From Azolla caroliniana (Eukaryota; Plantae; Polypodiophyta), in NCBI GenBank assembly GCA_043228905.1, contig JBHGNT010000020.1:12586001-12650000 (forward strand): a stretch of DNA of 64,000 nucleotides, read 5' to 3'. A program made the translations under genes and the position numbers. A model generated the notes under the pieces. It made no database searches and was not told the DNA's origin. It saw nothing but the letters and a program-made list of their open reading frames with translations. Positions 32,301-64,000 of the stretch are shown one piece after another (the stretch's first letter is position 1; every line of letters begins with the position of its first letter).

Positions 32301-33371
32301 GCAAGCTCAGTGGGCTCAATTCCTCACGTGTTTTGACTTCAAAATCACATATCGACCGGGGAAGCAGCAAAGAAAAGTAGATGAGCTATCACGACGTTCA
32401 TATCTTGCACCTTGTCCTGGTGATCCAGCGTTTGATAATCAAAAGCAAGTAATCTTGGGACCAAGACGATTGCACACAACACAGATTTTTCACACCCCAA
32501 TGGATTCCCGGATTACCGATGCCATACGTGCGAACTTGAAGATAGACAGTTTTGCTCAAGACATTCTGGCGCACATTGATACCTCTTGGGCATCCTGTTC
32601 CCAATCTCAACAACCAAGTATGGACTACCGAAAATTCGAACATCATGATGGTTTGTTATTCTTTAAAAAGCTTGTATATGTCCCCGATTGCTCCTATCGC
32701 CTTCAAATCGTCCAAAATTGTCACAACACCCATATGGCAGGACATTTCGGTAGTACTAAGACGTTGGACCTCGTTCAACGATCTTTTTGGTGGCCCCATA
32801 TGTGACGTTTTGTCAACGACTACGTTCGGACTTGTGATGCTTGCTGCCGAGTAAAGATGCCCCGACACCATCCATATGGCTTGTTGGAACCCTTACCGAT
32901 TCCAAGTAAGCCGTGGCAGTCTATTTGTCTTGATTTTATCACAGATCTACAGGTGTCGAAGGGGTTCGATGCTATCTTAACCGTCGTCGATCGATATACT
33001 AAGATCACACATTTTGTGCCGTGTACTAAGGCCATCACTAGTGAGGAAACCGCCGCCCTTGTCATGCATGAGGTATTTCGGCATCACAACCTCCTAGACA
33101 GTATCATCAGTGACCGAGGACCTCAATTCGTCTCCAAATTTTGGCAGCATCTCTTCGAGATGCTTAAGGTCTCTTACAACTTGTCCTCCGGCTACCATCC
33201 CCAGACCAATGGGCAGGCGGAACGAACAAACCAAACGCTGGAACAATATCTCCGGTGTTTTCTGAGTTATCAACAGGATGATTGGACCGAGATTCTCCAC
33301 TTTGCGGAGTTTGCATATAATAATGTTGTTCCCTCCTTGACTCGGGTCTCCCCATTTTACGCTTATACCAG

Positions 33372-34333
33372 TGTTGCGGTATTCCGCGGGTATGTGTAGG
33401 ATCTTAGGCGGGACCGCGGGGGTCTTGAACTAGGGAGACAGATGGTAGAGTCCTTATGCTTTGCAGGCTTCGGTCCAGAACCGGCTTCCGGCTCCAACGA
33501 AGGTAGGGTTTCACAAAAGGACGGCTCACCGCGAATATGGACCCGACTCAAATATGTTACAAGGAAGATAGATATACACTAACATGAATATATATAACAA
33601 GAGTTTACAACAAGACGGTTACATGCCCCGAATCTAGTGGCTATTACAAACAATCGGCTAATACATCAAGATAAGAATGGGAACTGGCGAAGGGGAGTCA
33701 AGTGGGCCGCCGGGACCGCGATGTCCACCGTTGGTCACACCCCGAAGACGATGGAGTGTTCCCGTCTCGAACCGGCCGCCACACAAAACGCTCTCCATCG
33801 AGGAGAGGAAGCCGAATCACCAAGTGCCGCCACCGGAATGCCTAAAGCTGTCGTTGTAGGAACCCCCAAACCAAACCAAACTCTCACACGAAGAAGAGAG
33901 AGTAACACCCGGAGACCCCAAGTACATAAACCCTAACTCGCACGAACTCTCTCAAGAAGAAGAACCTAAAGAGAATACTAACTTCCACCCAAAAGAGGGA
34001 ACCAAACCTATCAGAAAATGAAGAAGAAGACTCAAATGAAACCCTAAACGAAATAGAGTGAAAAGACCAAAATGGAAACCCTAAGAGAACAAGAATAAGA
34101 TGTAGAGGAAGAACACTACCAAACCCTAGACCTAAGTGGTATACCCTCCTAACTCCAAAATGGGCAACCCTTTAACAAAGGGTGCTCCTTTCCTTTTATA
34201 GAACAAGGAGAGGGATGCGTTACAATGTGGGATAAATACTCCCCCTTATTCTATACACCGTTTCCTACTATACATGTGCAACATGTGCCCATTCCACCCC
34301 TGTTTCACACTATAGCCGGAAATCTTCACGACA
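33372..34333 (-). mobile_element. Solo LTR (962 bp) of the 4-bp-TSD gypsy group, inserted in the chromovirus integrase
   Basis: TG..CA termini similar to the LTRs at 52586 and 55352; 34140-34240 is the reverse complement of ~55490-55590; TSD CCAG/CCGG; removing it restores YAYTGSHP. Confidence 0.88.
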
Positions 34334-34544
34334 CCGGTTCTCATCCTCCTTGGTTGGTTAGTGATCGACACCCCGGAGCTACCTACCAATCCTCATGCCG
34401 AGGCGTTTCCTACTATACATGTGCAACATGTGCCCATTCCACCCTTGTTTCACACTATAGCCGGAAATCTTCACGACACCGGTTCTCATCCTCGTTGGTT
34501 AGTGATCGACACCCCAGAGCTACCTACCAATCCTCGTGCCGAGG
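34259..34544. repeat. ~143-bp tandem duplication spanning the solo-LTR/integrase junction
   Basis: cgtttcctactatacatg...gccgagg at 34259-34403 and 34404-34544. Confidence 0.92.
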
Positions 34545-35135
34545 ATCATTTGGAGAGGCTACACAAGATCCAGATAGATATCTCTACTCATCTTCGTCAT
34601 GCTCAACACAACACACAGAAGACTTATGCGGATCGTCATCGGCTTCCCTCCTCTTTTGCCATCGGAGATCGACTATGGCTCTTACGTCGTCACATCAAGA
34701 CTACTCGACCGTGCGACAAGTTGGATTATCGACGACTCGGTCCTTTCCGTATTACTAGTAAGGTTAATGATGTGACGTTCCGCCTTGATCTCCCTCCGCA
34801 TCTTCAGATACATCCGGTTTTCCATAGCTCTCTTCTTGAACCTTATAAAACAAACACTATTCCCGATCGTGTTACACCACCACTACCCCCGCTTGAGTTG
34901 GAAGCCGGCCCGGAGTATGAAGTTACTGCCGTCCTCGATTCCAAACTTGTTCGCAACAAACTTTATTATTTGGTCGATTGGCTCGGCTATAGTCCGAGCG
35001 AACGTACTTGGGAACTTGTCGAGCATGTCGCCAATGCTCAGGATCTTCTTGCTGAGTTCCACCGAAAGTATCCGGACAAACCCGGTTCGCAATTAGCGCC
35101 GACTCGTTCCACTCGTCGTCTTAAGGGGAAGATAG

Positions 35136-35205
35136 TGTCATGGCAAGACTCGAACCCATGACCTTATGTTATATGGGTCGAGCTCTTGACCATTACACCA
35201 TCTAT
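35136..35205 (-). other. tRNA-like (Pol III A/B-box) module at the start of the chromovirus LTR; copy at 28744-28817
   Basis: Minus strand reads AGA-TGGTGTAATGG-TCAAGAGCTCGACCCATATAACATA-AGGTC-ATG-GGTTCGAGTC-TTGCCATGACA, with tRNA-like A-to-B box spacing. Confidence 0.65.
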
Positions 35206-35428
35206 TGTAATACATAAGATATTATTTTCATTTAAGTTTTATTATAGGAAATTAATGTATATTCCAGATTTCTCTGGAACATTCTAGAAGCTTCAGGATT
35301 ACTCCTGAGAACACTATAAAAGAAGGCACTATGCGTTATTTTGAACCAAATTGGTTCAACGCCAGTCTTAAGCCTCATAGCCCTTTTGTACTTACTCTTC
35401 ACATAATATATCCTTTGTTATCATCATC

Positions 35429-35476
<48 letters not shown>

Positions 35477-35479
<3 letters not shown>

Positions 35480-38400
35480 ATTTTCTTTCTTTCTGTGCGT
35501 CTGTTTCTCTCCCTCCATCATTATCTACGTTCTATAGCTCCCTGGAAAGCTCTTTCAGAGAGATTTCTAACGAATGTTTATTTGCTAAATTCCGTTGCCG
35601 GAGTGAGGAGTTATGAGCATTTTCGTCCGCGGCCCTCTCGTGACCCCTCAAACTCAAGGTAGATTTTGAAACCCTAAATCGATTGAAAGGTACATTCTAC
35701 TTCTTCTATCATTTTATTAATAGTAAATATGCCAAGAGGAGTAAAAGACAATGATGATGTGATTGAAAGCCCAAACAATCAAATGCATACATTGTCAATG
35801 GAGAAGATCGCAACTATGTATATCTCATTTCAAGAGACAATGATGCATATGCAAAGTGAATTGTATGCTTGTAAGGAGAGGGAATTAACTCTTCAACATA
35901 CATTGGAAATGCAAAAGTTAGAGATGAAAGCTACTACATGCAATGAAGAACATGACTATTCAAATGCAAGATAATAGGATGCCTAAAATCGAAAGAAATT
36001 TTTTGAGTCTTGAAGCAGAAAAATCAGAGATTTTAGTGAAGGCAAATGCCGAAATAAAATCTACAATTGAAGGGAAGGAAGATGTGATCATGACAAGGTG
36101 GAAAGATGTTCTCTTGAAAGAAACACCAAAAATCACGCAAAAACATCCAAATACCATGGATGTGTTAGATGTAAAGGAGCAATATGAAATCGAAATCGAA
36201 AGAATAATATTGTCATTAGAGGTATGCAAGAGAATGAAATAGAGAATGCATTATCTCTTGGACAAAATATTACGAAATTCTTTGAGGATCACTTTGCTAT
36301 GCGAGATGTTATTGTATATGCCTCACATCGGGTTGGCAAAAAGCAACAAGAGGGAAAGACATCTCGAGCTATTGTTTGTACAATCCTCGATGAACGTAAA
36401 AGGGCAATGATTCTAGATAGTAGTAAGGTGTACTTAAAAGGGCAACAAAGGATAAAACTCCACAAGAGCAAGATTCGATATGGCCTGACTCCAAAGGGGA
36501 TATTGGGCGTGCTGGGATAACATGTATCTACCATGAGAGCTTAGATAGTTCTATCAAAGTATGCAAATATGATGGCTATAAGAGATACATATGGATAGAG
36601 GTTAATTTGGGGAAAGAGAAGTTGTATATAGTTGCATGTTATATTCCTCACAAAGACTCAAACTACTATAGTAGGTTTGGGTTAGATTGTGATGATCCTT
36701 TTACAGAGTTATGCTATGATATACTTTCATTTGAGAAGCTTGGTAAAGTTTTAATTATGGGAGGCTTCAATGCAAGAGTTGGAAATTTCCAAAATGTGGA
36801 GACATTTGAAGAAAATGTAGTAAAACATTGTCTATTGCGTGACTCAGAGGATTATGTCATGTCAGATTATGGAAAACTTTTGATACATATGCTAAATTGC
36901 ACAAAATTGATTATCCTAAATGGAGTAAAGGCATTCACATTGACAAACGTGCTCACATGTTTACCATCCTCAGGTGGAGGAAGTGTGGTTGATTATGTAT
37001 TAATGTTGGCATGTGATCTATCATTGGTGAATGTGTTTAAAGTTGGTTCGCTATCTCCGGACTCAGACCACACGCCATTGTACTTAGAGCTTGCAATTAC
37101 ACATTCCACTAGATGTCGTGAAGGGAAAGACGAAAAGAGATGTATCATCTGACCTTGCTACGAAGAGATGCTAGACTATGTACAAAGGTTATATATGCAT
37201 GAAGGTGTGGCTCCTATGGTTGAGAAAATTGAAACTCCATGCACTACATGTATCGATATTGAAGATATCAATAAGGGAATAAAGAAGATGGGAAGTGGGA
37301 AAGCAGCAGATTCAACCTAGGTCTCAAGTGAGCTTTTAAAATGGACAATGGCACACCCTCGTCATTGGATAATGACAATTTTAGAGCAAGCTATAAAACA
37401 AGGATTTCCAAATGATTGGCTTATGAATTGGATTAAACCAATATTTAAAGGTGGAGATAAGAATCAAGGAGCAAATTATCGTACAATAATGGTGAGCTCA
37501 ACTATTGCTAAATTATATAGTACTATTATGGAGCAAAAGATAAGCACATGGGCTAAGAGTACAAGCAAAAGAGCACTTGGGCAAGCCGGATTTAGACCAA
37601 AACACTCCACCATGGATCATTTGGTCACATTAAAAGTGATCATGGAAGAGAGTCGACTACAAGGAAGAACACTTTATTGTTGTTTTGTTGATTTCAAGAA
37701 AGATTTTGATATCGTACCACGAAGTGAGCTTTGGAATAGAATGGTAGACATTGACATGCCATTAGAGTACCGAGTTGCGGTTGCACGCCTATATGAACAA
37801 GTTAAATGCCAACTAAAAATGGATAGTGGATTCTCAAAGAGCTTTTTAAGTAACATGGGGGTCAAGCAAGGATGTCCACTATCACCCACACTCTTTGGCT
37901 TATGTATTGATAAATTAGAAGAAGTGGTGAATAAGGTTTCAAGAGAAGAAGGATTGAATGACCCAATTTGATGCAACATGTTATCTTATTGCTTCTATAT
38001 GTAGATGATGTGGTACTCTTCTCATATGATGTTGATAGTATGCAACATTTACTTGGGGTATTAGAAGAATTTTGCCATAGTAGTGGACTAGCAGTGAATG
38101 TGGAGAAAACAAAAATGATGGTAGTGCAAACCATCCAACCTCATCATTACCCTATGATCACATATAAAGGTGAACATATAAAATTTGTTCAAAGCTTTAA
38201 ATATCTTGGTATTGATGTACCTGCCACAAATAAATGGAGTGCATGCTTTGATTCTAGACTCCAAGCCGGTTGGAAATCATATTACCTTTTGGAGAACCAA
38301 TGCAACCAAAGTGATACTTGTGGATGGGAAGTAAAATTAATGTTGTTCAATGCCATGGTAACTCAAGTATTGCTTTATGGAGTAGAAGTATGGGGTGACG

Positions 38401-39329
38401 CCATCTCTCTTAATGCATGGAACGAGATTGAGAAAATTCAAAAGATGTTTTTAAGGAGGCAATTAGGAGTTAAATGCACTACCTCTTACCAGGTTATGCT
38501 CTTGGAAACGGGTGTTCGACCCATAGAACTATTGGCACTCCAAAGAGTATATAAATACATTACAAAAGTCAAGAATATGCCGAATCATCAATTACCACAT
38601 CTTTCTTGGAATGTTGGATGTAAGCTACAAAAGAATCATAAAAGTAAGATTCTCTCATCTGGTTGGGTTGTTGACATAAAGAAATGGTTTAGACGATGGG
38701 GTGTGGATGATCTTTTAGAGATTTCAGGCAATGCTATGCAATATGTAATGATTGAGGAAAGGTCGGTGGAATCATTAAGGATGAAGTGGGAGGATGCTAA
38801 GAGGACAAAGCTAGAATACTACATTGCAAATGTCAACCCTGAATGTTGGTCTCAATATAAAGCAAGAATGTCTATTGATCGTATCCAACCTTATCTCATT
38901 ACCAATATGAGTAGGAATGCTCGTAGAGCCCTTACACTACTTCGCACTCGATCTCACAAGTTAGGTATTGAAGTTGCATCATGGTATCAAAATGTAACGA
39001 ATTTGAAGACATGTAAAGTATGCAATGAAGGCATGGTAGAGGATGAATGTCACTTGCTCTTCACATGCTCGACATATAGTGCAATTTGTTCAAGATATGT
39101 TGACATACTAAGAGGGAGTGATAATTGAAGATCCATACTTAAGACACCACCTAGAAGGTTGAGCTCATATGTGTATGCTTTATTAACACATAGAGACTTT
39201 GTGGTTCAACATATGAATACCCCTTCTTAGGAAGGAGACATATATCAAGAACACATGTATACTCTGGTCCCATAGGTCAAAATTGGCCTCTTTATGGACG
39301 ATTCTAATTCTAATTCTAATTCTAATTCT
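35477..39329 (+). mobile_element. Near full-length two-ORF LINE (RTE-X/L2-like) inserted in the (CT)n tract of the chromovirus 3' LTR
   Basis: Coiled-coil ORF1 fragments 35729-36520; AP endonuclease (MGGFNARVG, SVVDYVL, SDHTP); RT (KQGCPLSP, LLYVDD); CX2C..EDE.H.LF.C motif; (AATTCT)n tail; LTR resumes at tcctctctcgggagtc. Confidence 0.93.
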
Positions 39330-39666
39330 TCCTCTCTCGGGAGTCTTACGCAGTCCCGTCCTCTTAGTACTAATAGTACTTCCCTTTTTTTAGTACTAAT
39401 TCTCTCCCTGTTTTAGTACTATTCCTGACAGTGGGAAGGTATTCTAGTTTGGTTTTCGTCAATCATATCTGATCCCCAATAACGATAGAAACATATATCT
39501 ATGATGTGATTTAAACAACTCCAACTTTCTTAAAAATGTTACGTTGTGAGATAATATTCACACCTTATTTCCATAGGTTATAAATATTACTATTATTAAA
39601 TTGTTGGCATGGTCAATGATCTTGGATTCTCCTAGATGTCTTCCATGTGTGTCTATACTATATCTA

Positions 39667-41620: not shown

Positions 41621-44598
41621 AATGTTGATCTTGATTTATTTAAGATGGCTCGAGCAATTGTTGAAGAATGGAATGGTTGCATATCGACAAAGTCTTGAGC
41701 TTAATGGAAACGGACACATTGTGGTCCGTTACTCTTGATTTATTTAAGATGGCTCGAGCAATTGCTAAAGAATGGAATGGTTGCATATCAACAAAGGCTT
41801 CAGCTCAATGACAACGAACATTTTGTGGTCCAAGGAGCAAACATAGAGAATACTGAAGAACATATACAAGTACCTCTTACAAGGTGGATATATTTGGAAG
41901 CACCTGAAGGAGAGAACATGAACACCATTGAGAGTGGTTTGCAAGGAGGAGCAACCGACTCTAATGCCGAGAAGCCAAACAAGAAACATTGATAACCAAG
42001 GATGGACAAGAACGTTGTCGTGAGGAATTCTGGCAACAAGGAGAAAAAGGGGTCAAATGCGCGGGAACGAGGGCTTGCGTTGATGCACTCAAACTATGTC
42101 TTTATGTACAAACGTGTGTAAATAGCATGGTGTTAGTTAAGTGTTGTGGAATACTAGGTAGGTGTTATTGATTGGTACTTTAAGGGCCACAAACATAGAG
42201 AATAATAGATATATTTGATGGAGGGAATCAGGGGAAATCTCAGTCCAAAGCAGCTGTCTTAACAACCTAAGGTAACGTCTCTCTCTCTGTGACATATACT
42301 CTCAACATGTTCAGGCCCATCTTGATAGGAATGCACACTCCGTTTGCACAACACTCGGCCACAACCGAGTCTAAAATCAAACACAAAAAACGGGTAATGA
42401 ACGCACGACACAATGAAGAGAAGAGTACACAGGATGTTAATGTGGAAAAACCCAAACTAGGGAAAAAACCACGGCAGCCCACAGACTGCAAACTATCACT
42501 ATCTCAGAATGTACAATAGTAAAGCACCGAGGCAATGACCTCGAGCTTGCTATCTTCGCCACAGGCGGCGGTTACAACAGAGGCAACAACCTCTTCCTCT
42601 CTCTCTCTCTCTCTGTCTATGTACTCTATTATGCGCTCTATAGTCTTACGCCAACAAGAAGACAACACATATACTGAGTTTGCCCTAAGTCATATTTATG
42701 ACTTTTTGGCTATTTACAAATATAGCCCCGATGGACTCTTAGAAAAAATATTTACGAATATGTCCCTTCATCCGGTGAGCACTTCTCACCGGGCCTTCAC
42801 CATCCTGCTCTTGCCGGGTACTCCTCATCCGGTTCTCACCGGGTCTTCCGTAGCCGGGTACTCCGCATGCGCTAGCATACTCCAGACCCTCTCCATTATG
42901 GTCCGGTTCATCCTCTCGGCCAACCCGTTTAGTTCGGGCGTCTTCGGCACGGTAAATTCGAGCCGGATTCCCTTCGAGCGACAGTACTCCTCGAACTGCC
43001 CCTGGTATTCACCTCCGTTATTTGCTCGAACCGCCTTCAGCTTCCGGCCGGTTTCTCTTTCCACTCTCGCGTGAAGCTCTTTGAAGACGGATAACACCTG
43101 ATCCTTCGTCTTCAACGGTGTGGCCCACAGCTTCCGGTTGTGGTCATCTATGAACGTCACGAAGTACTTCGATTCTGCATGTGACTTCGTGTCCACTTGA
43201 CACACATCAGCATGCACCAACTCCAGTGGTGCATTATGTCTCATCGGTGGCCTTGGTCGGAAGGAGGTCCGGTTTTGCTTACCGGTCAGACAATCAGTGC
43301 ACTTCTCCAAGTGCACGTTCTTCATTGGAATGAGGTCATGTGACACAGCCTTTTGTGCCACAGCTCACCAGCAGTGTCGGATGCCACGTTCACTTCCTCC
43401 GGACATAACCAGGCATTCATCAGGTACAATGTGTTTACCTTCCGGGCCCGAGCCACAATTAGGCTCCCTTTTGCTGAACTTTATAACACCGTTCTGGATG
43501 CTACCCGTGTAGCCTTCATCATCTAGCCGACCGACTGATATCAGGTTTAGACGAACCTCCGGAACATGTCAGACATCCTTCAACAACAGCTTGCATCCGG
43601 TTGGTGTTGTTAGCCACACGTCTCCTATACCGACAATTCGGCATGTTCCTTCATTCCCCATCTGGACACTGTCGTGATCACCGACTGAGTAGGATGAGAA
43701 GCATTTCCGGTCCGGGGTAAGGTGGAACGACGCTCCGGAGTCGACCACCCAGGTCATCTCATCGCCAACAAGGTTTATCTCACTCTCCTCAGTGATGAGC
43801 ATCAACTCTTCTTCACTTGCCGTTATTGCCGTCGTTCCCTTCCGATCTTTACCATTCCGGTCCGGTGTCCGCTTCGAATCGATACCGTCGGTTTCCTTGT
43901 CTTTTCGGAAATGCTGATAGTTCTTCTGGAAGTGTCCTGGCTTGCCGCAATAGAAGCAAGTAGGCCTCCCCCTTGACTTTGACCGTGTCCCCAACTTTTC
44001 CCGGTTCTGGGGACTACGGTTCCTTTGTCTTCCGTGTTCCAATTCGGTAAGGAGCGCTTTGGAGTTAGAGCTCGTATCCTTATCTTTCCGACGCGCCTCC
44101 TCATCTAGCAAGCTCAACTTCACTCTTGCTAGGGATAACCGTTTCCCTTCCGGCCCGACGTTGCCCAAGGTGACAACCAACGTCTCCCAGCTATCTGGGA
44201 GGGAACCGAGCAGGAGTAGTGCTAGTACCTCATCGGCAAGAGGTACTTCCAATGATGTTGCCTGGTGGATCAGCCCCTGGAAGGCATTCATGTGCTCCGC
44301 CATGCTGGAGCCATCTTGGTACCGGAGTCTTACTAGCTTCCGAAATACCGAAACTTGATTGACAACATTTTTGTTCTGAAACATAATGCCGATCTTCTCC
44401 CAGAGCTCATGAGCCTTGCTCTCTTCATTGAAGTTGTTATATAGACTCATGTCGATGAAGCACCGTATGTAAGCCGTTGTCTTCATGTGCATCACCTCCC
44501 ATATCGCGGCGTCGATTTTGTCCGGTCTCTTGTCCCCGAACTGAACCGGCAACCTGTTGGGATTACGGTCCCTCCGGATGGGATGGTTAGATGTCCGT

Positions 44599-50852: not shown

Positions 50853-52585
50853 CTCCTCCCTTGATCCCTCCCTACCTTTAAAAAGCCTTAGTACGAAACT
50901 CACACACATCCTTCACTCCGCAGCAACTAGTAGTTTCCCATATACAAAACTCTCAAATCAAGGTAGATCAAGATCTATGCCACAAAATAAATGCTATGAT
51001 GAGGATTGTAGGGACTTACATAGACAACTTACAGTATCACAACTCAATGGTAGTATTACCTCAATACAAGCTCACAAAGAAATGCGCAAGATGACACGTC
51101 GTAAGAGACGGGTGTGGGAGGCATCCCAATATTGGGAACTCTACCATATGCTCATGACTAGCGATTGTGCCACAACATGGAAGAGACTACGGGAGCCAAG
51201 ACCACAAACACCCATCGAAGATCCCGAAACCTGGCACACATATACAGAGAGACTTTACCAAATCCCAAACCAACCACCCATTCCAATGCCTTCCACACCC
51301 CGACCTACCATGGGGAGACTTTTCATGACCTCTATGGTCGCAAAGGTCATAAAGAAATTACAACATAGGAAGTCCATGGACCACACAGGATTGCGAGCAG
51401 AACACAATATATATGCGAGAGAGTGCCTAGCTCCCTTGCTAACTCTAATCTTCAATCGTGCCCTTGCGGAGGGTTTTCCACCATAGTGGACTATGAACAC
51501 AGTGGGCCCCATACATAAAGGGGGGAACCCCATGGACCCAAATACATATAAGACCATTATGATAGGTCATACCCTTGCTAAATTATATGGTGCAGTAATG
51601 GAAGCAGATCTTAGCGATTATATGGAGACCCTAAATCTTCGTGCACCTGAACAAGCTGGCTTTAGATGAGCCTTCTCCACCATTGATCATATCTTCACAC
51701 TTAGATGCTTAATTGACCAAACTAAGGCTCGCAAGAAGAAATTATATTGTTGTTTTGTGGACTTCCGCAAGGCCTTTGACACAATCCCTAGAGAGCGGTT
51801 GTTTGATAGGCTTAAAAGCTTGAGGATACCAGATGACATGGTCTGGGCCATCTACACACTATATGAACAAGTGTCCGGGTGTGTCCGATGCCCAGGTGGC
51901 CTATCCAATTGTTTCACTAGCACTATAGGTGTAAAACAAGGTTGCCCCCTATCACCGACACTTTTTGGGATCTACATTGATGAGATCACAGATTTTATTG
52001 CTTGTAAGGGAGGCAACAGAGTAGTCCTTGGGGATACGCAGATTCGTATCTTGCTCTATGTGGATGACATAGTTTTGCTCTCTGAATCCGAACACGACCT
52101 ACAAAGGCACCTTAATGCCTTAGATGGCTTCTGTGCACAATGAGGATTGGTAGTGAATCTAGGGAAAACTAAAGTCCTTATCTTCCACACATCGGCCGAA
52201 GTTAGAGCTAAGTGTCACCTAACTATCTCCCATAGCCCAATTGAGGTGGTTGGATCATACATCTATCTTGGAGTCACTTTCAGTGCTCGCTCAGGTAAAT
52301 TTTCGATTACACAGGCAACGAAGGATAGACTTACGAGAGGACATGCATCCCTCTCACTCCTAGAGAGACAATGCCACCAAGCATACTTTCAAGAGCCACA
52401 GACTAAAGGGTGGCTCTTTGACTCATTAGTGACCCCCTCCCTCATGTATGCATAAGCGGTTTGGGCTCCAGGATTACCATCTTTCATGTGGACGCAATTA
52501 GAGAGACCATTGGTGATGATGTTATCACGCCAACTCCGAAGCAAATCGACAGTACCACATGACATTATTAGGGCTAAGTTCACGT
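50853..52585 (+). mobile_element. Degenerate LINE RT fragment of a different family in the same clade as 35477
   Basis: QAGFR..FSTIDHIFTL, VDFRKAFDTIPR, KQGCPLSPTLFG, LLYVDDIVL; cut at 52586 by an LTR. Confidence 0.88.
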
Positions 52586-52816
52586 TGTCGCGGTATTCCG
52601 CGAGTACGTGAAGAAGAGAACAAGGCGGGACCACAGGGGGTCTCGGACCGAGGAATAACCGAGTGAGGAGAGGGGAAGGAACTACCGATGTAATTCACAC
52701 GCACACAGACACACACACACACAGACAGAACGCGAGATGGAGATATAACGAACGTTTACGTATATATAAATCAAGGTGTTACAATCGGCAAGCCGGCGAG
52801 TGGTAGGCTCCGACGC

Positions 52817-52852
<36 letters not shown>

Positions 52853-55800
52853 TGCGAGATGGATACTCTGCCGGAAGCACTCGGGCGTTTCGCGGAGTAG
52901 AGTCAGCCTCCCGAAACCCGCACAGAACGACTATGGAGACGACAGAGGAGAGGAGAAGCGCTCGGTTCCAGTTCGGCAGCACTTCGTCCTCCACAAAACG
53001 CGATCCCTTTTACAATCCCTCTCCCTCTCTTTTATAGCCCAAGGAGGGAGGCCGTTACCACCCGTTACATCATGTTTATTCCTTGTCCTTTCGGACATGG
53101 ATACGCCTCCATTTTCTCCATAATGAATGCGTGCTACCTAGGATTTCACCTCAGCCGACTTGTAGCGCTACCTACGTACTATACAACAAAACTTGTGCCC
53201 ATGTGTAAGGGCCGGTTTACGCACGTTATACCCGGTTTCCGCCTAGGGACGGTTTTCTCCACGACATCCGCCCCCACCTAATCGCGCATCCACCGATATG
53301 CGCCAAATTTAGACTCTTGCTGGAGAAGACCAGCCCACGCTCATCCTTCGTCTTCCAGATCGGCATCCGTTCTGAGCCGGTCGTTGTCGCTATCTAGGTC
53401 GTCTGGGTCCGGTTCAGCCTCATGCCGCTTTTTGAATGCTTTGATCCTCTTCCCCACCACCGGTACCGCCATCCTTGTCCCGTTGAGCTCCGTGAGATGG
53501 TTGGTCCTATTGTTGTTGGCGCTTGTCACCACATAAGGCCTGAACCACCTTCTTGCAAACTTCCGCATTGCCCGGTGTTGGTTGTCGAGGCTGCTGTCAT
53601 ACACTAGAACCCAATCGCCTTCCTCGATCTTCTTCGGTCTCAGTCGGTGAGTCCGGTCGAACCGTCCTTTGTTCTTTACCCTTGCTGCCCGTAGCTTCTC
53701 GGCGGCTTGGTTCACGTCCTCCAGTCTTCGCTCTAGCTGCCGAATCCGTGTCGCTAACAGCTCCTCCTGGCTCATCTCGTCTTTCCAGTCCACCGTGGCC
53801 CATGAGGAGATTGTCTACTCCGTTGGCATGATCGGCTTCTGCCCGTACATTAGCTTTGCCGGCGTGAACCCGGTTACCGAACCGTGCGTAGTTCGGTCCG
53901 CCCACAACGCATAGGGTAAGAGTCGCGGCCAGTTCCTGACTTGGCCTCCACATGCCCGTACTAATGCTTTGATGATCGGCCTGTGTCCGCGCTCCACCTT
54001 CCCGTTAGCCTCCGGATTGTATGCCATGGTGAGCAAGAGTTTAATTCCTAGCCGGTCAAACAACTCTTCCGCCTCTTGCGTGTCCAGTTCCCCGCGGTCG
54101 GCCACGATCTTACCTACGCACCCGTACCGGCATACCACTTCTTCGATCAGAAATTGGCACACGGCCGCGGTCGTTTTGTTCTGCAACGCTCGGCCTTCCA
54201 CCTGGTTCGTCAGGTCCTCCTGAGCCAGCACCAGATACCGCATCTGCCCTACCCCCATCGGCATCGTCACCAGATCCACCATCCACTTGAAGTGGAGGGT
54301 CGGAGGGTAGGTCGGGTGGAGGTCGTCCCAATGTCGGACAATGGAGTGCGCCTGACAACTTTCGCAAGTCGTCACGAACCAATGCACATCCCAGTATAGT
54401 CCCGACCACCAGTACTTCCCCTTTAGCTTCTCAAATGTGGCCCACGTCCCGCGGTGTCCGACCCAGGGATTCTCGAGGTACGCTGTCAGCAATTCTTCTT
54501 GTTCCCCTTTCTTTGCCACCATATGCTCCCGTCTCGTAGGAAGAATCGGTACGCTTTCTTCCGAATCCGGTTGGTCTCTCCCTTCGTCCATGCCATGTCC
54601 GGTGTCATTGTCTTTAGGAACCCGCCGATCTGGAGCCACTCCCCGATGTACTTGCTCTCGTCGAATTCGTTAAGTGCCGGAGTGCTCCCCTTTCTTGTCG
54701 TTACGTTAGTTGACCCGAAGAAGTCCTCACCGACTTCTTCGTTATCCGAAACAATGTCATCCTCGTCGCTGAACCGTGCCCTTGAAAGCATATCGGCCAT
54801 GGCGTTATCCTTTCCAGAGATGTGTCGTATCTCCGGGTTCAGGGACTTGATGTACGCGATCCACCTGAGCATTGCCAGGTCCGGAGTCACGCATCTAGAA
54901 ACCATGTTGAGAATCGGCAGGCAGTCCGTCTCGATTATCACCTCTCTCCCGATCAGGTAGTCTTTATCGGCCTTGACCGCTGAAATGATACCCCAGAGTT
55001 TGCGTTTAACCTGGGCGTATCCTCGCTGCAGCTCGCTCAATATCTTTGCCCAGAACTGGATCGAGAACCGTACGTCGTCTTCATCTTCCTGATTGATCAC
55101 CCACCTGATCCCGATGGGGCTCGTGTCCACCGTCACGTAAATGGGGTCTTCCTTGCCGTAATTTGCTTTTCGGAGAGCCGGTGCCGCGGCGAGCGCCTCC
55201 TTCAGTCTCCGGATCGACTCCGCGTGCTCCGTCCTCCAATCGAACCGGCGCCCTTTCTTTAATAACCCGTAAAGTGGCTCCGCGACATGCGCGTAGTGCG
55301 GAATCCAGATGTGATAGAACGTGCACGCCCAAGGATCCTTCGGACCTCCGTTGTCGTGAAGAATTTCGGCCAGAGGCGGAAACCGGGAAATATTGGCTAC
55401 ATCGGCGGGGTGCACCATGTGCACCCACCCTCGTGTAATTGTGTGAATAATAGGAGTTAAGTCGGGACGAAGAATCCCATGTAAATCGGGATTTATCCCA
55501 CATTGTAACGCATCCCTCTCCTTGTTCTATAAAAGGAAGGGATGATCCCTTATAGAAGGGTTGCCCATTTTTTAGTCTTAAGGGTATACCGTTTTGTGTT
55601 TCTTTCTAGGGTTAGCGACATCCTTTCTCTTCTTCGTTGCTTTCTGCTTCGTCTCGAGGAGTCGTGCAGTAGCCATGGTAGGAAAGCTATTAGGTTAACT
55701 CTTCTTCTCCTGTGTGTACCCGGCTCGCGGCCGGGGTTGTATCTCTCCTTGTTGTAGGTTGCTTCAGCTCGGCCTCCTGTGCAAGACCCCGCTCGGCGCG

Positions 55801-56790
55801 ACGAGCCTGAGAGCTCCCTGACGGCGGCTTGGCTGCAGACTACCGTTGCGACCTAGCCTACCTCACTCCGACGCAGAGTCGGAGTTGTAACTCACTCTTG
55901 TAATCATAAATATATACAGGGTTGTGCATATTTGTGTCTCTGTTGGTGTGCGTTGTCGTGAAGAAAACCGTCCATAAGCGGAATCGGCGCACCAAGGCGT
56001 GGGAACCGGTTCTTCACGCACGCACGCTCCAAGTTGTACATAGAAGCGAATTAGGAGGATAATCGGCAGGAACGGGCCCTAACACAAGTGGAGACAAAGA
56101 CCGCGCGAACAGTCTTTTCGGTCGGGCGCGCGAGCTAAGGAACTGTACGAGTCGGCGGCGTAACTACACGGATGCGTGAAGAACGGAGCAGATCCCTGTT
56201 CAAAAGGGACAGGGAATAAAGCTGACAGGACGGCCTGCTCGTCGGCCTATATAAGGAGCAGGAAAGAGCTGTTGCAGGGATCTCGCGCGGAGAGGACGAA
56301 GTGCTGTCGGACCGTTTCTGGACGCTTCTCTCTCTGTTTCCTTCCTTCTTGAGCTCCATAGCTTTTCTGTGCAGGGTTCCGAGGAGGCTCGCGCTGTTTC
56401 GAGGAACGCCCGAGTGCTTCCGGCAGCATCTCCGACCTGCTACCCCTTTGTGCGTCAAAGCGAACAAGCGCCGGCTTCTGTTCGCCGGCCTGTTCGGCTG
56501 TAACCAACCTGTGCCCCATCGAGGGTTGTAGTCGTGTTAGCCATTTTTGTTAATATACATAGTTAGTCATTCGCATCTGTCTGTGTCGGTGTCTGTTCGC
56601 GTTCTCCGTGCTGAAGGGCCGTGTCCCTGTGTATTCCCGGTCCTGCGTAGCCGGTTCTCTCTCCTTCTCCTCCCTCGCTTGCTCTTTGGTTCGAGACCCC
56701 CGCGGTCCCGCCTCGTTTCCACACGCACTTGCAAAACATCTCGACATCTTTGGTGAACCCGACGTGAAGGAGGCGGCAGAAGAGCAGAAG

Positions 56791-58917
56791 ATGAGGGGGT
56801 CGGATCTTGCAGAGGCCATGGCTTCGGCCGTGGATCGGATTGTAAACGCGCGCGAGGGCACCAGTGCCCTCGACAGAGCTATTGAGGCGGTCGTCGGCAC
56901 GATCGGCCGGTTCGATGGGAAGGATGCCACGAAGTATTTGGCGTCCTACGGTGCAGAGATGCTGATGCGGGACATTCCGGAAGAAAGGCGTCTTGCCGGA
57001 TTTTCCCGAGTGGCGATGCCGAGCATCCATGCGGAGGTGCTCGAGGTGCGGGCGGAGAGCCGTACCTGGGAGGAGTTCGAAGGTCGGCTCCTAGAGAAAT
57101 ACGGGCTGGACGACGCGCTCCGGCTTTCAAAGCGAAGGTTCATGGAATGGGTGGAGTCCCCGGGGAAGGGAAGAAACGCGTCGGCACTCCTCCGGGAGTT
57201 CGAGGAAACCTTTGCGCGCCTTTCGGCGCTCGACCGAACCATCCTGGACACGAGCCGGGTCTTGCTGTTTGTCAAGTCGGTCGACGAGCGGGATCGGGAG
57301 CAAGTGGGCCTCTTGCTGGAAACCGAAGACGGGCTCACTACCGACTGGGCGGCTGTCAAGAAAGTCTGTGACCGTTTCGACAAACGGCGAGAATGGGTGG
57401 ATAACGGGGCAACCGGGTCGGGCTCGGTCGCAGCAAGGAAGCTCGAACCAGCGCCACAGGAGCGAAAGGAAGAGGCCCGAGAGTGGTTGGAAACCGGTTC
57501 GGCTTCGACCGGCGTAGTCAGAGGCTCAACCGGAGGAGCGGCGCTGGAGGAATTGACGAGGGCGATAAAGGACCTCCAAATCGCGCAAGCCCGAAGGGAA
57601 GGTGGCGAACCGGCTCGTGACCGACGGCCGGCGGCAGGAAACAGGTGCATGTGGTGCGATGAAGTCGGCCACATTCGGAAGGACTGCGGCGACTTCGCGG
57701 AGGCGCTGAGGAACAAGGTGGTGTACCTGTGGGAAGGACGGGTGCATGCCAGCGACACCCGAAGGGCCCTGAGCCGAAACGACGGGCGAGGTGGTATGAA
57801 AAGGTTGATGGAAGAGGCGGCGGCCCGACACGCGGAAACCGTCCACTACTCGGCGTCGGCCGGCATTCGAGTCGGGGGCGGCGAGGCCCGAAGGGAAAGC
57901 AAAGCCGGATTCTGGCCGACGATGCTGGAAGGCCTTGCCAGTGCAAGGCTTATAAGGGAGGAATCGGACCGTGCGGAGAAACGGGTACGGGAGATGACCG
58001 GGTGGAGCGACCCGGTCGAGGAAAAGACGGGCTTCGTGGAAGCCGCTTGCCAGAACTACGAGGCTCTGGTGGAAGAGAAGCGGGTGGGGAAACCCGGGAC
58101 GACCGGGCCCTCACAACGATACGAGACCCGGTCCGGGCCACGACGGGACGAAGCCGGCGGGGCCGGTACGCAAGATAAACCCCAGAAGGGCGGGTACCGT
58201 CTGGGGACGGAGATAGAAAGGACCACGGACTTACGAAAGGTCCTGGAGGAACGGATCCTCGACAGCAAGGTGGAGCTATCGCTACGAGAGGTGCTGGGAA
58301 TCGCCAAGAAGGAGTTCCACGACTCCATCGTGGACTTGGTAAAAAGGAAGAGGCTGTCAACGGAGACAGAACCGGAAAGACCGGTGGAAGTGCGGACGAC
58401 GCACCTAGACGACATGGCGCTGGGAGACGAGTGGGCGGAAAGCCATTATTCGAGACCACACTGGGCCCGAGCGACCACGGAAACCCCGGTGAAGATCGGC
58501 GAAGTCCAGGAACCGGTGGTAGCTTTGGTGGACCACGGATCGGAGATCAATATGATGTCCATGGACTTCTATAAGAAGGGCAAATGGCCGATCAACACCA
58601 AACACGGGTGGAAAATAAGGGCAGCAACGCGCGCCACCGAGGAACTGCACGAGGCCTGTCCGAATGTGCGAGTCAAGATCGGCGACGTCGAGATTGACCA
58701 GCACTTCTTCGTGCAGGAGACGTCTTCGCATCCGGTCATACTGGGAGAGCCGTACATCACGGCGGCATGAATGGAGACCAAGGTGCTGGACAATGGTTCG
58801 GCCTACGCGAGGGTCAAAAGCCAAGACGGGCGCCATTCGGTCCAGTTTCTGACGGTACGGCCGAACCACGAACGTAACTGCGACTCCCTCGGTTCCGAAA
58901 ACCGAGAGGATTTTTAG
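56791..58917 (+). CDS. gag: Gag-protease ORF with one internal TGA (58768-58770)
   Basis: ATG at 56791; zinc knuckle CMWCDEVGHIRKDC; protease VVALVDHGSEIN..ILGEP; the frame stays open after the TGA until GAT TTT TAG. Confidence 0.85.
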
Positions 58918-61900
58918 AGAGGACTGCCAAGGCGTGGGGCCGCGACAGTCCGGATGCTCCGGGAAAACCCCACATCTGTACGATAAAGCCGTGTACAATA
59001 GGTAGGAAATTTTGCTTCTCCGACAGCGGAGCATGTACGATGGTCGGCATTGCCGGCCGAGAGAAAACAAAGACGGAGGGGAGACTTCGGGCGTGCGGAG
59101 TTCTCGGCCCTGACGAAGAAATCGACGGAGCCGTGGAGGCAGTCTCCTTCGATGACACCTTGGGAATGCTGGGGAAGGTGGTCGAGGAAGACCTTAACGA
59201 AGACCGGACGATACCGGTATGTTCAGAAGAAATGTACGAAGTCATCGCGGACTTCGGTCGAGGGCTTGAGTCGGAACGGACGGCCCGAGTTAGCACCAAG
59301 TACAAGACTGTGGACCGGAAGGTGAGACCAGTTGCGGCGCCCTTACCGGAGGGCAGCGAATCCCGAATAAAAATGGTTGCATCGGACCCCAACTTACGAG
59401 ATCCGGCCTGCATAGGACACACCTTCACCAACGAGACGCTCCGCGAGCTGAAGATCGGTGGGGGCGGGTTCCTACTGCCGGTGGAGGAAGACCGGTTTCG
59501 GAGAATGCTCGGAAGCCACGGGAAAGCCTTTGCGTTCTCACTGGAGGAAATCGGGTGCGTAGACCCGACGGTCGTAGAGACAATGGTGATATTCACGGTA
59601 CCGCATGTACCGTGGAATCTCAAGCCAATTCCGGTTCCGAGAGCTCACATCCCGAAGTTGATGGAGCTGTTGAAGCAGAAAGTTGATATGGGCATTCTCG
59701 AGCCGTCGAGCGCCCCATATTCAAACCGATGGTTTACCGTACCAAAGAAAAACGGATCGTTGCGCTTCATTCAAGACCTGCAGCCGGTCAACAGAGTGAC
59801 CATTCGGAACGCAGGGATCGGACCGACCATAGACGAGTTCGCGGAGGCCTTCGCCGGAAGGTCGATTTACTCGGTCGGTGATCTATACTCAGGGTACGAC
59901 CAGTTCCAGCTAGCCGTGGAGAGCAGAGACATTACGACGATGCGAACTCCCCTCGGTCTAGTGCGGATGTGTACGTTGCCGCAAGGAGGAACCAACTCGG
60001 TGGCCCACATGGTGAATGCAATGAACAAGGTGCTGAGGGACTGCATCCCGGACATCACCATGCCGTTTCTAGACGACATCCCGATCAAGGGATGCCCGGT
60101 AGAAGAGAAGGACGAGACGATCGGGCCGGACGGATGCCGGCGATTCGTGATGACGCACATCGACGACTGCGAGAAGGTGCTGCAAAGGCTAGAGGATGCG
60201 AGGCTCACCTTCTCGGGGGAGAAGTCAGCCTTCGGGCAGTCGGAAATCATGGTGGTCGGACATTTATGTGGACCATATGGCCGGAAACCGTCTCCGGCAA
60301 AGGTAGAAGCCATCTCTGCGATGAAGCCTGATTGCAGTTCGGTCATGGAAGTACGACGATTCTTGGGAGCATGCGCCTTCTACCACATATGGATCCCGCA
60401 TTATGCGCACGTCGCTGAGCCGCTGTACGGGTTATTGAAGAAAGGGCGAAGATTCCAATGGCTAGACAAGCACACGGAGTCGGTCCGGAAGCTGAAGGCG
60501 GCTCTTTCGGCAGCACCGGCGCTCCGAAAGGCCGTCTACAGGAAGGGCACCCCAGTGTACATAACGGTTGACACGAGTCCGACCGGGATCGGGTGGGTCG
60601 TCAACCAAGAAGACGAGGACGACAATCGGTTTCCGATCCGATTCGGCGCAAAGGTCCTCAGTGAGCGGCAGCGAGGATACGCCCATGTTAAACGCGAACT
60701 CTGGGGTATCGTTTCGGCGGTGAAGGCCGACAAGGACTATCTGATCGGGACAGAGGTAATCATAGAGACGGATTGCATGCCGATTCTCGGCATGGTTTCC
60801 GGATGCGCGACGCCGGACCTGGCAATGCTCAGGTGGATAGCGTACATCAAGTCCCTGGACCCGGAAATACAACACATTTCCGGGAAAGACAACGACATGG
60901 CCGACATGCTTTCGAGGGCGAGGTTCGATGACGAGGGCGGCATGGTTTCGGAGGACGAAGAGGTCGGCGTGGACTTCTTCGAGGCAGCATACGTAACAAC
61001 CGACAGGACGAGCACTCCGGCGCTTAACGACTTCGACGCGAGCAAGTACGACGGGGAGTGGCTGCAGATCGGCGGGTTCTTGAGGACAATGGCGCCGGAT
61101 GCGTCATGGACGAAAGACGAGGCCAACCGGATCCGGAAGAAAGCGTACCGGTTCTTCCTCCGGGATGGCTATCTATGGAAGCACCCGAAGAAGAGGGACG
61201 GCGCTCCGCTCCGGGTGGTGGCGATGAAGGAAGAACAGGAGGAGCTGCTGACGGCCTACCATGACAGCCCTTGGGCCGGACACCGTGGAACTTGGGCCAC
61301 GTTCGAGAAGATAAAGGAGAAGTACTGGTGGCCGGGACTGTACCGGGACGTGCATCGATTCGTGATAACTTGCGAGAGCTGTCAGATGCACTCCGTGGTC
61401 CGACACCGGGACGAGCTTCACCCAACGTACCCTCCGACCATCCACTTCAAATGGATGGTAGATCTGGTGACGATGCCAATGGGGGTAGGACATATGCGGT
61501 ACCTGGTCCTAGCGCGGGAGGATCTGACGAACCAGGTGGAAGGCCGGGCCCTTCCGAACAAAACGACCGCGGCCGTATGTCGGTTCCTAATCGAGGACGT
61601 GATATGCCGGTACGGGTGCGTCGGGAAGATCGTGGCTGACCGAGGGGAGTTGGACGCCGAAGAAGCCGCGGAGCTGTTCGACCGGCTTGGAGTCAAGCTC
61701 TCGCTCACCACTGCGTACAATCCGGAGGCGAATGGAAAGGTGGAGCGCGGACACGGGCCGATCGTCAAGGCGTTGGTTCGGGCATGCGGAGGCCGAGTCG
61801 GTAACTGGCCGCGGCTGCTACCTTATGCTTTGTGGGCAGACCGGACCACGCACAGTTCGGTAACCGGGTACATGCCGACGGAGCTCATGTTCGGCCAGAA

Positions 61901-62396
61901 GCCGATCATGCCGATGGAACAGACGATCTCCACGTGGGCAACGGTCGACTGGAGGGACGAGATGACCCGGGAGGAGTTGTTGGGCGCGCGTATACGACAG
62001 CTCGAGCGGAGACCGGAGGACGTGGAACTGGCTGCGGAGAAGCTCCGGGTGGCGAGGACAAAGAACAAAGCCAGGTTCGACCGAACGCACCGGCTCCGAC
62101 CGAAGAAAATCGAAGAAGGTGACTGGGTGCTCGTCTACGACAGCAGCCTCGACAACCAGCACCGAGCTACACGGAAGTTCGCACGAAGGTGGTTCGGGCC
62201 TTACGTGGTACGGAGCGCCAATGACAACGGGACATATCACCTGGCGGAACTCGACGGCACGAGAATGGCGATACCGGTTGCAGGGAAGCGGATCAAAGCG
62301 TTCAAGAAGCGACACGACGACGAGCCGGACCCGGCTCTCCTAGTCAGCAGTGACGAACGATCCGAAAACGAGGAAGAACCGACGGGCGAGGAATGA
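58908..62396 (+). CDS. pol: Pol (RT-RNase H-integrase), intact, in the -1 frame
   Basis: Open from 58908; PFLDD, VDTSPTGIG, H..PWAGH..CESC, WMVDL..ADRGE..GKVE and GPY motifs; no chromodomain. Confidence 0.95.
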   Translation, partial: GFLERTAKAWGRDSPDAPGKPHICTIKPCTIGRKFCFSDSGACTMVGIAGREKTKTEGRLRACGVLGPDEEIDGAVEAVSFDDTLGMLGKVVEEDLNEDRTIPVCSEEMYEVIADFGRGLESERTARVSTKYKTVDRKVRPVAAPLPEGSESRIKMVASDPNLRDPACIGHTFTNETLRELKIGGGGFLLPVEEDRFRRMLGSHGKAFAFSLEEIGCVDPTVVETMVIFTVPHVPWNLKPIPVPRAHIPKLMELLKQKVDMGILEPSSAPYSNRWFTVPKKNGSLRFIQDLQPVNRVTIRNAGIGPTIDEFAEAFAGRSIYSVGDLYSGYDQFQLAVESRDITTMRTPLGLVRMCTLPQGGTNSVAHMVNAMNKVLRDCIPDITMPFLDDIPIKGCPVEEKDETIGPDGCRRFVMTHIDDCEKVLQRLEDARLTFSGEKSAFGQSEIMVVGHLCGPYGRKPSPAKVEAISAMKPDCSSVMEVRRFLGACAFYHIWIPHYAHVAEPLYGLLKKGRRFQWLDKHTESVRKLKAALSAAPALRKAVYRKGTPVYITVDTSPTGIGWVVNQEDEDDNRFPIRFGAKVLSERQRGYAHVKRELWGIVSAVKADKDYLIGTEVIIETDCMPILGMVSGCATPDLAMLRWIAYIKSLDPEIQHISGKDNDMADMLSRARFDDEGGMVSEDEEVGVDFFEAAYVTTDRTSTPALNDFDASKYDGEWLQIGGFLRTMAPDASWTKDEANRIRKKAYRFFLRDGYLWKHPKKRDGAPLRVVAMKEEQEELLTAYHDSPWAGHRGTWATFEKIKEKYWWPGLYRDVHRFVITCESCQMHSVVRHRDELHPTYPPTIHFKWMVDLVTMPMGVGHMRYLVLAREDLTNQVEGRALPNKTTAAVCRFLIEDVICRYGCVGKIVADRGELDAEEAAELFDRLGVKLSLTTAYNPEANGKVERGHGPIVKALVRACGGRVGNWPRLLPYALWADRTTHSSVTGYMPTELMFGQKPIMPMEQTISTWATVDWRDEMTREELLGARIRQLERRPEDVELAAEKLRVARTKNKARFDRTHRLRPKKIEEGDWVLVYDSSLDNQHRATRKFARRWFGPYVVRSANDNGTYHLAELDGTRMAIPVAGKRIKAFKKRHDDEPDPALLVSSDERSENEEEPTGEE

Positions 62397-64000
62397 AGAC
62401 GGGCCGGTTTTCTCCGTCCCAACTCTCTTGGCGCATACCGGAGGATGCGCCGTTAGGTGGGGGCGGATGTCGTGAAGAAAACCGTCCATAAGCGGAATCG
62501 GCGCACCAAGGCGTGGGAACCGGTTCTTCACGCACGCACGCTCCAAGTTGTACATAGAAGCGAATTAGGAGGATAATCGGCAGGAACGGGCCCTAACACA
62601 AGTGGAGACAAAGACCGCGCGAACAGTCTTTTCGGTCGCGCGCGCGAGCTAAGGAACTGTACGAGTCGGCGGCGTAACTACACGGATGCGTGAAGAACGG
62701 AGCGGATCCCTGTTCAAAAGGGACAGGGAATAAAGCTGACAGGACGGCCTGCTCGTCGGCCTATATAAGGAGCAGGAAAGAGCTGTTGCAGGGATCTCGC
62801 GCGGAGAGGACGAAGTGCTGTCGGACCGTTTCTGGACGCTTCTCTCTCTGTTTCCTTCCTTCTTGAGCTCCATAGCTTTTCTGTGCAGGGTTCCGAGGAG
62901 GCTCGCGCTGTTTCGAGGAACGCCCGAGTGCTTCCGGCAGCATCTCCGACCTGCTACCCCTTTGTGCGTCAAAGCGAACAAGCGCCGGCTTCTGTTCGCC
63001 GGCCTGTTCGGCTGTAACCAACCTGTGCCCCATCGAGGGTTGTAGTCGTGTTAGCCATTTTTGTTAATATACATAGTTAGTCATTCGCATCTGTCTGTGT
63101 CGGTGTCTGTTCGCGTTCTCCGTGCTGAAGGGCCGTGTCCCTGTGTATTCCCGGTCCTGCGTAGCCGGTTCTCTCTCCTTCTCCTCCCTCGCTTGCTCTT
63201 TGGTTCGAGACCCCCGCGGTCCCGCCTCGTTTCCACACGCACTTGCAAAACATCTCGACAGCGTGTGTGTGTGTCTTAGTGTTTCTTTCTTGCTTATGTA
63301 CATATGTGTGTGAGAGTCAATATTGCGTGCCCGCTCTCTCTCTCTCTCTCCCTTCGGTTGCTTCCGGTGTGCTTCTGGGATGCCCCGGAAATGGTGAAGC
63401 ACGACTTCCTACGTTCCGTCACTCCCTAGTCCAAGACCCCCGTGGTCCCGCCTTTCTCCAACACGTACTCGCAAAACTTCGCGACACCGTGACTGACCCA
63501 CAATCATCCTTCATCGCGGAGATGGCTTCTACCTTTGTCGGGGACGGCTTCCGGCCGTAAGGCCTGCACCAGTGTTCGACTACCAAGATCTCCGGTTGTC
63601 CGAAGGCTGATTTTTCTCATGAGAAGGTGAGTCGCGCGCTCTCGAGTCTTTGTAGCACCTTCTCGCAGTCGCGGATGTGATCCATCACGAACCTCCGGCA
63701 ACCGTCGAGCCCGACCGACTCGTCCTTGTCCTCCATTGGACATCCTTTGATCGGGATGTCGTCCAGAAATGGCATGGTGATGTCCGGGATGCAGTCCCTC
63801 AACACCTTGTTCATCGCATTCACCATGTGCGCCATTGAGTTCGTTCCTCCTTGCGGCAGGGTACAAATCCGAACTAGGCCGAGAGGAGTCCGCATCGTCG
63901 TGACATCCCTGCTCTCTACGGCTAGTTGGAACTAATCGTACCCTGAGTACAGATCCCCGAACGAGTAGATCGACCTCCCTGCAAAGGCCTCCACGAACTC

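What the first reader, a model, noticed from the sequence alone, without database searches (positions are those of the whole stretch)
33368..63490. The 4-bp-TSD gypsy group always inserts at a central CpG (NCGN)
Seen: target sites are CCGG (solo LTR at 33372; left copy decayed to CCAG), CCGT (55352), GCGT (55954) and ACGT (flank of 52586, one end only). All four have CG at the centre and all lie inside other TEs. Most plant LTR elements make 5-bp TSDs with weak preference. Inference: a CpG- or methyl-CpG-directed integrase would steer insertions into CpG-rich young TEs and away from CpG-poor host DNA without needing a chromodomain, which would explain the nesting.
Basis: partly seen in the sequence, partly recalled or inferred. 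Interest (0 to 1): 0.75.

Follow-up and report, generated by a model that had tools for sequence, protein, structure and literature searches.

The report
Phygy-type retrotransposons inserting at CG
These jumping genes land almost only on CG in a four-base target, a habit already published for the moss Phygy lineage to which they likely belong, so the pattern is real but ordinary, and the idea that the enzyme reads methylated CG remains untested.

Summary
A fifth, missed site at 42016 also follows ACGT. Related contigs agree: 10 of 11 strict, flank-blind junctions have central CG, and majority flanks of 12, 21, 32 and 11 dissimilar contigs end in NCGN. Neumann et al. 2019 (PMC6317226) report exactly this for the Phygy lineage of Physcomitrella: 186 elements, 4-bp TSD, NCGN. 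Phygy nesting in Tcn1, between integrase and chromodomain as at 33372, is also published. Element C fits Phygy in TSD and domain layout; phylogenetic membership could not be tested. The likely mechanism is a 4-bp-stagger intasome that bends its target at a flexible YR step, as in foamy virus, narrowed to CG. Steering into TEs is only weakly supported: TEs hold 79% of CpGs on 58% of bases, yet two of five hosts and most outside flanks are CpG-poor. Methyl-CpG reading is untested.

The parts
33368..33371 (+). Left TSD of solo LTR D, CCAG (CCGG with the CpG decayed, inferred)
33372..34333 (-). Solo LTR D (962 bp), inserted in a chromovirus integrase between the core and the SH3/chromodomain part
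34334..34337 (+). Right TSD of D, CCGG; repeated at 34479-34482 by a 145-bp tandem duplication (34259-34544)
28748..35480 (+). Host of D: decayed Tcn1-like chromovirus (RT, rve, SH3_Tf2-1, Chromo); ends approximate
42012..42015 (+).
42016..42322 (+). Start of LTR F, cut off by a copia cluster; similar to an LTR start in L018
41227..42015 (+). Host of F: decayed, CpG-poor pol (RNase H to integrase zinc finger) of the same lineage
51448..52585 (+). Host of A: LINE reverse transcriptase remnant; last four bases ACGT are the one visible TSD of A
52586..53266 (-). 3' LTR of element A (681 bp), polypurine tract next to it
53267..64000 (-). pol of element A, interrupted by B and C, runs off the window
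55348..55351 (+). Left TSD of solo LTR B, CCGT (right copy 63487-63490)
55352..63486 (+). Solo LTR B (824 bp without C), split by element C
55950..55953 (+). Left TSD of element C, GCGT (right copy 63261-63264)
55954..63260 (+). Full-length element C, 7307 bp; LTRs 55954-56746 and 62468-63260, 99.7% identical
56751..56767 (+). Primer-binding site, shared with many related contigs; assignment to tRNA-Trp is recalled, not shown by a call
56791..58770 (+). gag-protease frame of C (DUF4100), 659 aa
58878..62396 (+). pol frame of C: RT, RNase H, integrase; no chromodomain, no second RNase H

Best explanation
These are non-chromovirus Ty3/gypsy retrotransposons, likely of the Phygy lineage, that duplicate four bases centred on CG at almost every insertion, likely because their integrase bends the target sharply at the central step and selects CG by sequence. 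Shown: 4-bp duplication, central CG, edge bias (A/C first, G/T last), no chromodomain, integrase fold like foamy-virus and Ty3 intasome subunits. Inferred: a 4-bp stagger needs an unstacked pyrimidine-purine step at the centre (established for PFV and other 4-bp retroviruses, consensus TSD VYRB); extra selection narrows YR to CG, with the conserved acidic residue at the PFV Ala188 position (E150 in the DRGEL motif) and the conserved QH..RKF loop of the C-terminal domain as candidate readers. Nesting follows mostly from TE-dense surroundings plus a mild CpG weighting; TG/CA centres are later deamination.
For: Window: 5 of 5 sites CG or its decay product. Outside: 10 of 11 strict flank-blind junctions, 13 of 17 at a looser cut-off, from 70 LTR ends tested; 15 of 20 curated junctions against a flank CG frequency of 0.03, p about 2e-19, or 9e-12 with 0.10. 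Majority flanks of 12, 21, 32 and 11 contigs in four runs (three organism codes, three studies; agreement only 0.40-0.50 overall) end CCGG, ACGC, ACGT, ACGT; 42, 19 and 19 contigs give ACGT, ACGT, ACGG after an LTR end. CG is 15 of 19 YR-centred sites though only 12.5% of YR steps in the flanks, and TA is 0 of 20, so flexibility alone is not enough. Phygy: 4 bp 100%, NCGN, no extra domain. PFV consensus and bending (PMC4422553; PMC6784120). Model pLDDT 83.9; best folds PFV intasome (E 3.6e-20) and Ty3 intasome (TM 0.76). E89%/D11% at the Ala188 position and Q93 H90 K100 F100 in the loop across 89 homologues.
Against: No REXdb or Physcomitrium reference sequence could be obtained, so placement in Phygy is by features only. 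C is 7307 bp, below the 7656-9968 bp range of P. patens Phygy. One well-aligned outside junction has TCCA. The 20-junction set was curated after the flanks had been seen. In PFV the two base-reading residues contact bases flanking the central step, not the step itself, so no residue is shown to read CG. Nothing here separates plain CG from methyl-CG.
Confidence: 0.8

Rival explanations
1. The integrase (or a partner) prefers methylated CpG, which would send copies into silenced TE DNA and away from unmethylated genes without a chromodomain.
For: 5 of 5 window hosts are TEs, and two are rare surviving CpGs in CpG-poor old TEs (0.015, 0.025), the kind of DNA expected to be methylated. At least 8 of 20 outside flanks are TE and none of 38 flank ORFs hit Pfam as a gene. 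5 decayed TSD centres (D left plus 4 outside) fit methylation at some time. Phygy nested in Tcn1 is the commonest repeated pair in P. patens.
Against: No methyl-binding domain in pol. TSD decay can happen after insertion. Nesting is expected from TE density alone (92% TE from 28748 on). Outside flanks are biased by assembly and 12 of 20 are unclassified. No methylation data were available.
Confidence: 0.12
2. The integrase only wants a bendable YR step; CG dominates because a host tether brings it to CpG-rich young TEs.
For: YR preference and the VYRB edge pattern are general for 4-bp integrases. Two of five window hosts are young CpG-rich elements.
Against: CG is chosen even in CpG-poor flanks (mean 0.03); 15 of 19 YR-centred sites are CG, p 7e-11 against the flank share and 1e-4 against a generous share of 0.35; no TA centre in 20.
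Confidence: 0.05
3. Chance or misdrawn boundaries (four sites, one decayed, one single-ended).
For: Small number in the window; related families are not independent draws of biology.
Against: 4-bp register is exact for B and C and frame-consistent for D; independent contigs and runs repeat the motif; the same motif is published for 186 elements.
Confidence: 0.01

Closest known systems
Phygy clade, non-chromovirus Ty3/gypsy of Physcomitrella patens (Neumann et al. 2019, PMC6317226; passages and Additional file 5 read)
   Same: 4-bp TSD, NCGN preference, no chromodomain or extra domain, coding region fills the interior; PBS looks like tRNA-Trp (recalled). Nesting into Tcn1 between integrase and chromodomain also reported (Jedlicka et al. 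2019, PMC6911290, passages and section 6 read).
   Different: C is 7.3 kb against 7.7-10.0 kb; described there as specific to P. patens, whereas named relatives here are from Riccia and Adiantum; the data here refine NCGN to mostly (A/C)CG(G/T). Tree placement untested.
Prototype foamy virus and other 4-bp-TSD retroviral intasomes (PMC4422553, PMC6784120; passages read)
   Same: 4-bp stagger, central YR, T disfavoured first and A last; closest solved folds to this integrase together with Ty3.
   Different: PFV preference is weak and accepts any YR; here CG is near-obligate; acidic residue in place of Ala188 and a longer C-terminal-domain loop.
Drosophila ZAM subgroup errantiviruses (review PMC5408687; passages read)
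   Same: Ty3/gypsy elements with sequence-specific, CG-containing 4-base target (CGCG), showing that such specificity has precedent.
   Different: Different lineage, different LTR ends, motif CGCG not NCGN. That Drosophila has little CpG methylation is recalled.
Selgy and TatI (other 4-bp non-chromoviruses)
   Same: 4-bp TSD; TatI also lists tRNA-Trp.
   Different: Selgy: tRNA-Ala, 4.4-6.7 kb, no NCGN listed. TatI carries an archaeal-type RNase H, not found here.

Membership tests
Phygy | Clusters with Phygy in RT-RH-INT trees (the basis of the REXdb classification) | not testable with these tools
   REXdb FASTA and element table too large to read; no Physcomitrium-named protein among listed homologues; tree without a reference is uninformative
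Phygy | 4-bp TSD | tested here: met
   B and C exact, D 1 mismatch and frame-consistent; 5 and 6 bp do not fit
Phygy | NCGN target | tested here: met
   5 of 5 in window counting D; 10 of 11 strict outside junctions
Phygy | No chromodomain, no aRH, no extra ORF; GAG-PROT-RT-RH-INT fills the interior | tested here: met
   Pfam on C; no chromodomain among precomputed domains of the 120 listed homologues; ORFs span 56791-62396 of interior 56747-62467
Phygy | PBS complementary to tRNA-Trp (81% of Phygy) | tested here: inconclusive
   A conserved PBS is present in C and many contigs; the tRNA-Trp label is recalled; searches for a matching tRNA gene found none and the paper search gave only unrelated hits
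Phygy | Descriptive, not defining per the paper: length 7656-9968 bp | tested here: not met
   C is 7307 bp; Neumann et al. call size relatively insignificant for classification
Tat (TatI) | Archaeal-type RNase H domain in the polyprotein | tested here: not met
   Only RT_RNaseH families hit, on one stretch
Chromoviruses (Galadriel, Tekay, Tcn1) | Chromodomain after integrase | tested here: not met
   No Chromo hit in C while the host element at 34316-35158 has one
Selgy | tRNA-Ala PBS, 4.4-6.7 kb, variable TSD sequence | tested here: not met
   7.3 kb and NCGN; PBS isotype itself not shown by a call

The most novel reading that the evidence does not exclude
Phygy-type integrases read methylated CpG directly at the bent centre of the target, using the conserved C-terminal-domain loop, and so home into silenced TE DNA without a chromodomain or host tether: a methylation-guided retrotransposon lineage spread through mosses, liverworts and ferns.
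Probability: 0.12. Interest if true: 0.7.

Novelty: already known. Interest (0 to 1): 0.15.

Why it matters
As it stands it is a clean local example of a published lineage trait. What it adds is small: the trait holds in related families outside P. patens-type data, it is CG-specific beyond general YR flexibility, it is refined to mostly (A/C)CG(G/T), and candidate residues are named. The cause of the NCGN preference was not found explained in the papers searched, and element C is young with an open pol, so the question 'CG or methyl-CG' is testable. A methyl-CpG-reading integrase would be a new targeting route and would matter for TE-host conflict and for integrase engineering.

Tried and rejected
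No whole genome is held, so no genome-wide logo. Viral contigs: no integrase relative; 5 pattern hits were chance matches in unrelated coding DNA. Genome contigs: 0 hits twice. No tRNA gene matching the PBS found; paper search on the PBS motif gave unrelated mouse-metabolism papers. Junction harvests with loose rules were rejected: one search seeded false starts, at 5 mismatches in 20 returned mostly coding-region chance hits. Rows dropped before the 20-junction count: L005 (inside integrase), L030/L031/L033 internal LTR repeats, L057 (looks like a worn PBS), L012:1346 (true start is 511), L020:2557 (weak match), PPT- or PBS-adjacent ends. RT tree had no Phygy reference, and its row winA_partial was a wrong frame and was ignored. 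Cluster look-up gave no organism names. Atlas search on the homologue P0121 gave DUF4100 gag clusters in Streptophyta and Basidiomycota, a lead only. Kitamura et al. 1992 on CpG methylation and retroviral integration is not held (seen only as a reference title). GingerRoot paper not relevant. P. patens RLG2/RLG3 paper has no target-site passage. Earlier scan findings: none on this element. 5- and 6-bp TSDs rejected.
Full report
Observation. D is a 962-bp solo LTR at 33372-34333 on the minus strand, flanked by CCAG and CCGG; a 145-bp tandem duplication repeats its right junction. The 4-mer has the same codon phase in the host integrase frame on both sides. B (55352-63486) has CCGT twice, and both flanks map to the same 4-mer of the intact homologous pol, with small indels nearby. 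C (55954-63260) has GCGT twice and LTRs differing at 2 of 793 positions. A shows one end, ACGT at 52582-52585. Five- and six-base duplications do not fit B, C or D. I found a fifth LTR start at 42016 after ACGT, inside a decayed pol of the same lineage. All five hosts are TEs. With present-day host CG densities the joint chance is 1.3e-7, or 2.1e-6 allowing any dinucleotide.

Outside evidence. No genome is held. I took 80 metagenome contigs encoding relatives of the integrase, the best 80 of 224. Termini were defined from the internal side only (polypurine tract or primer-binding site) and the opposite end was sought at LTR distance: 70 of 91 ends could be tested, 21 were truncated. At up to 3 mismatches in 20, 11 had a genomic flank: 10 CG, 1 TG. 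At up to 5 mismatches, 13 of 17 were CG. A hand-curated union of 20 junctions, chosen after flanks were visible, gave 15 CG, 4 TG/CA, 0 TA, 1 CC; L029 is doubtful and L067 (TCCA) is a real-looking exception. In public DNA runs, contigs leaving the LTR start gave majority flanks ending CCGG (12 contigs), ACGC (21), ACGT (32) and ACGT (11), with overall agreement of only 0.40-0.50, so the flanks are unrelated apart from the motif. After an LTR end, 42, 19 and 19 contigs gave ACGT, ACGT and ACGG. One of these runs may be the source of the window, and only majority letters are shown. Over 28 half-sites the first base is A or C in 26 and the last G or T in 22.

What the elements are. C encodes gag-protease (DUF4100) and a pol with RT, RNase H and integrase, with no chromodomain and no second RNase H. 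Named relatives are Riccia proteins (61-62% over pol for the best ones) and Adiantum RT fragments, and the host of D carries a Tcn1-like chromodomain, so the window is likely from a non-seed plant (inference). Neumann et al. 2019 (PMC6317226; passages and Additional file 5 read) state that 93.4% of plant elements have 5-bp TSDs and that Phygy is the exception with an insertion preference for NCGN: 186 elements, 4 bp in 100%, tRNA-Trp PBS in 81%, no extra domain. Jedlicka et al. 2019 (PMC6911290; passages and section 6) report GC-rich centres in 4-bp TSDs and Phygy-in-Tcn1 as the commonest repeated nested pair in P. patens, six between INT and the chromodomain, which is where D sits. Phygy domains are also reported from the liverwort Apopellia (PMC12885004; passages). 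Additional files 1 and 3 of Neumann et al. (per-element TSDs and reference proteins) were too large to read; they bear directly on membership and on the refined motif. I therefore call the elements Phygy-like, likely Phygy.

Mechanism. Shown: the integrase model (pLDDT 83.9) matches foamy-virus and Ty3 intasome subunits best. Established (PMC4422553 and PMC6784120; passages): 4-bp-stagger intasomes unstack a central YR step, PFV's TSD consensus is VYRB, and Ala188 and Arg329 read bases around it. The edge bias here matches that. Shown: CG is selected beyond YR, 15 of 19 YR-centred sites where CG is 12.5% of YR steps. Inferred: direct or shape readout by the integrase narrows YR to CG. Candidates are the acidic residue at the Ala188 position (E 89%, D 11% of 89 homologues) and the QH..RKF loop in the C-terminal domain (Q93, H90, K100, F100); their role is untested, and in PFV the equivalent contacts flank the central step. 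Sequence-specific CG-containing targets have precedent in Drosophila ZAM (review PMC5408687; passages).

The steering claim. In the window, leaving out the inserted CG-family DNA, recognisable TE spans are 58% of bases and hold 79% of CpGs (spans drawn by me, and the remainder may be older TEs). A plain CG rule raises the chance of 5 of 5 nested sites from about 0.07 to 0.31, a weak gain. Host CG densities are 0.058, 0.015, 0.025, 0.103 and 0.058, which fit both unweighted and weighted sampling. The 20 outside flanks average 0.031, like the window's unweighted background (0.030) and below its CpG-weighted expectation (0.051, simulated p 5e-5), but they come from other genomes, assemblers favour unique flanks, and CpGs decay after insertion, so this leans against strong steering without settling it. 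At least 8 of 20 flanks are TE; 38 of 59 ORFs from the other flanks were scanned and none hit Pfam. Nothing here distinguishes CG from methyl-CG. I saw only the abstract of a paper on moss methyltransferases (PMC6453930) and a search listing for met1 work.

Novelty. The headline is in print. Searches for an explanation of the NCGN preference or a methyl-CpG test found none in the held library, which lacks most subscription papers. Verdict: real, already known, interest 0.15; the methyl-reading reading keeps about 12% probability.

Noticed in passing
   Followed up: yes
window 34259-34544: 145-bp tandem duplication (95% identical) spanning the right junction of solo LTR D, so the junction and TSD appear twice.
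   Followed up: partly
window 56791-58770: The gag-protease frame of young element C is 659 aa, about 58 aa shorter than a 95% identical relative (P0121, 717 aa), so it likely carries a premature stop although pol is open.
   Followed up: no
window 12131-14086: 651-codon open frame with internal 156/81-nt repeats and no Pfam hit; unexplained.
   Followed up: partly
window 39667-40364: About 700-bp unit bounded by 240-bp inverted repeats (86% alike), with an end similar to one in L035; possibly a non-autonomous DNA transposon.
   Followed up: no
window 908-1992 and 38252-39337: Two 95% identical copies of a LINE 3' part, 37 kb apart.
   Followed up: no
window 42322-50848: Nested copia cluster in both orientations; related copia copies at 15646-18108 and 20206-23788.
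   Followed up: no
window 35136-35165: The LTR of the Tcn1-like host begins with a stretch that resembles a tRNA T-arm read backwards (recalled resemblance, not tested).
   Followed up: no
L067:1502: Well-aligned LTR end (84% to C's LTR) followed by TCCA, the one clear non-CG junction of 20.
   Followed up: partly
P0121 (gag homologue): DUF4100 gag look-alike clusters are mostly Streptophyta and Basidiomycota, hinting at fungal relatives of this lineage whose target sites could be compared.
   Followed up: no
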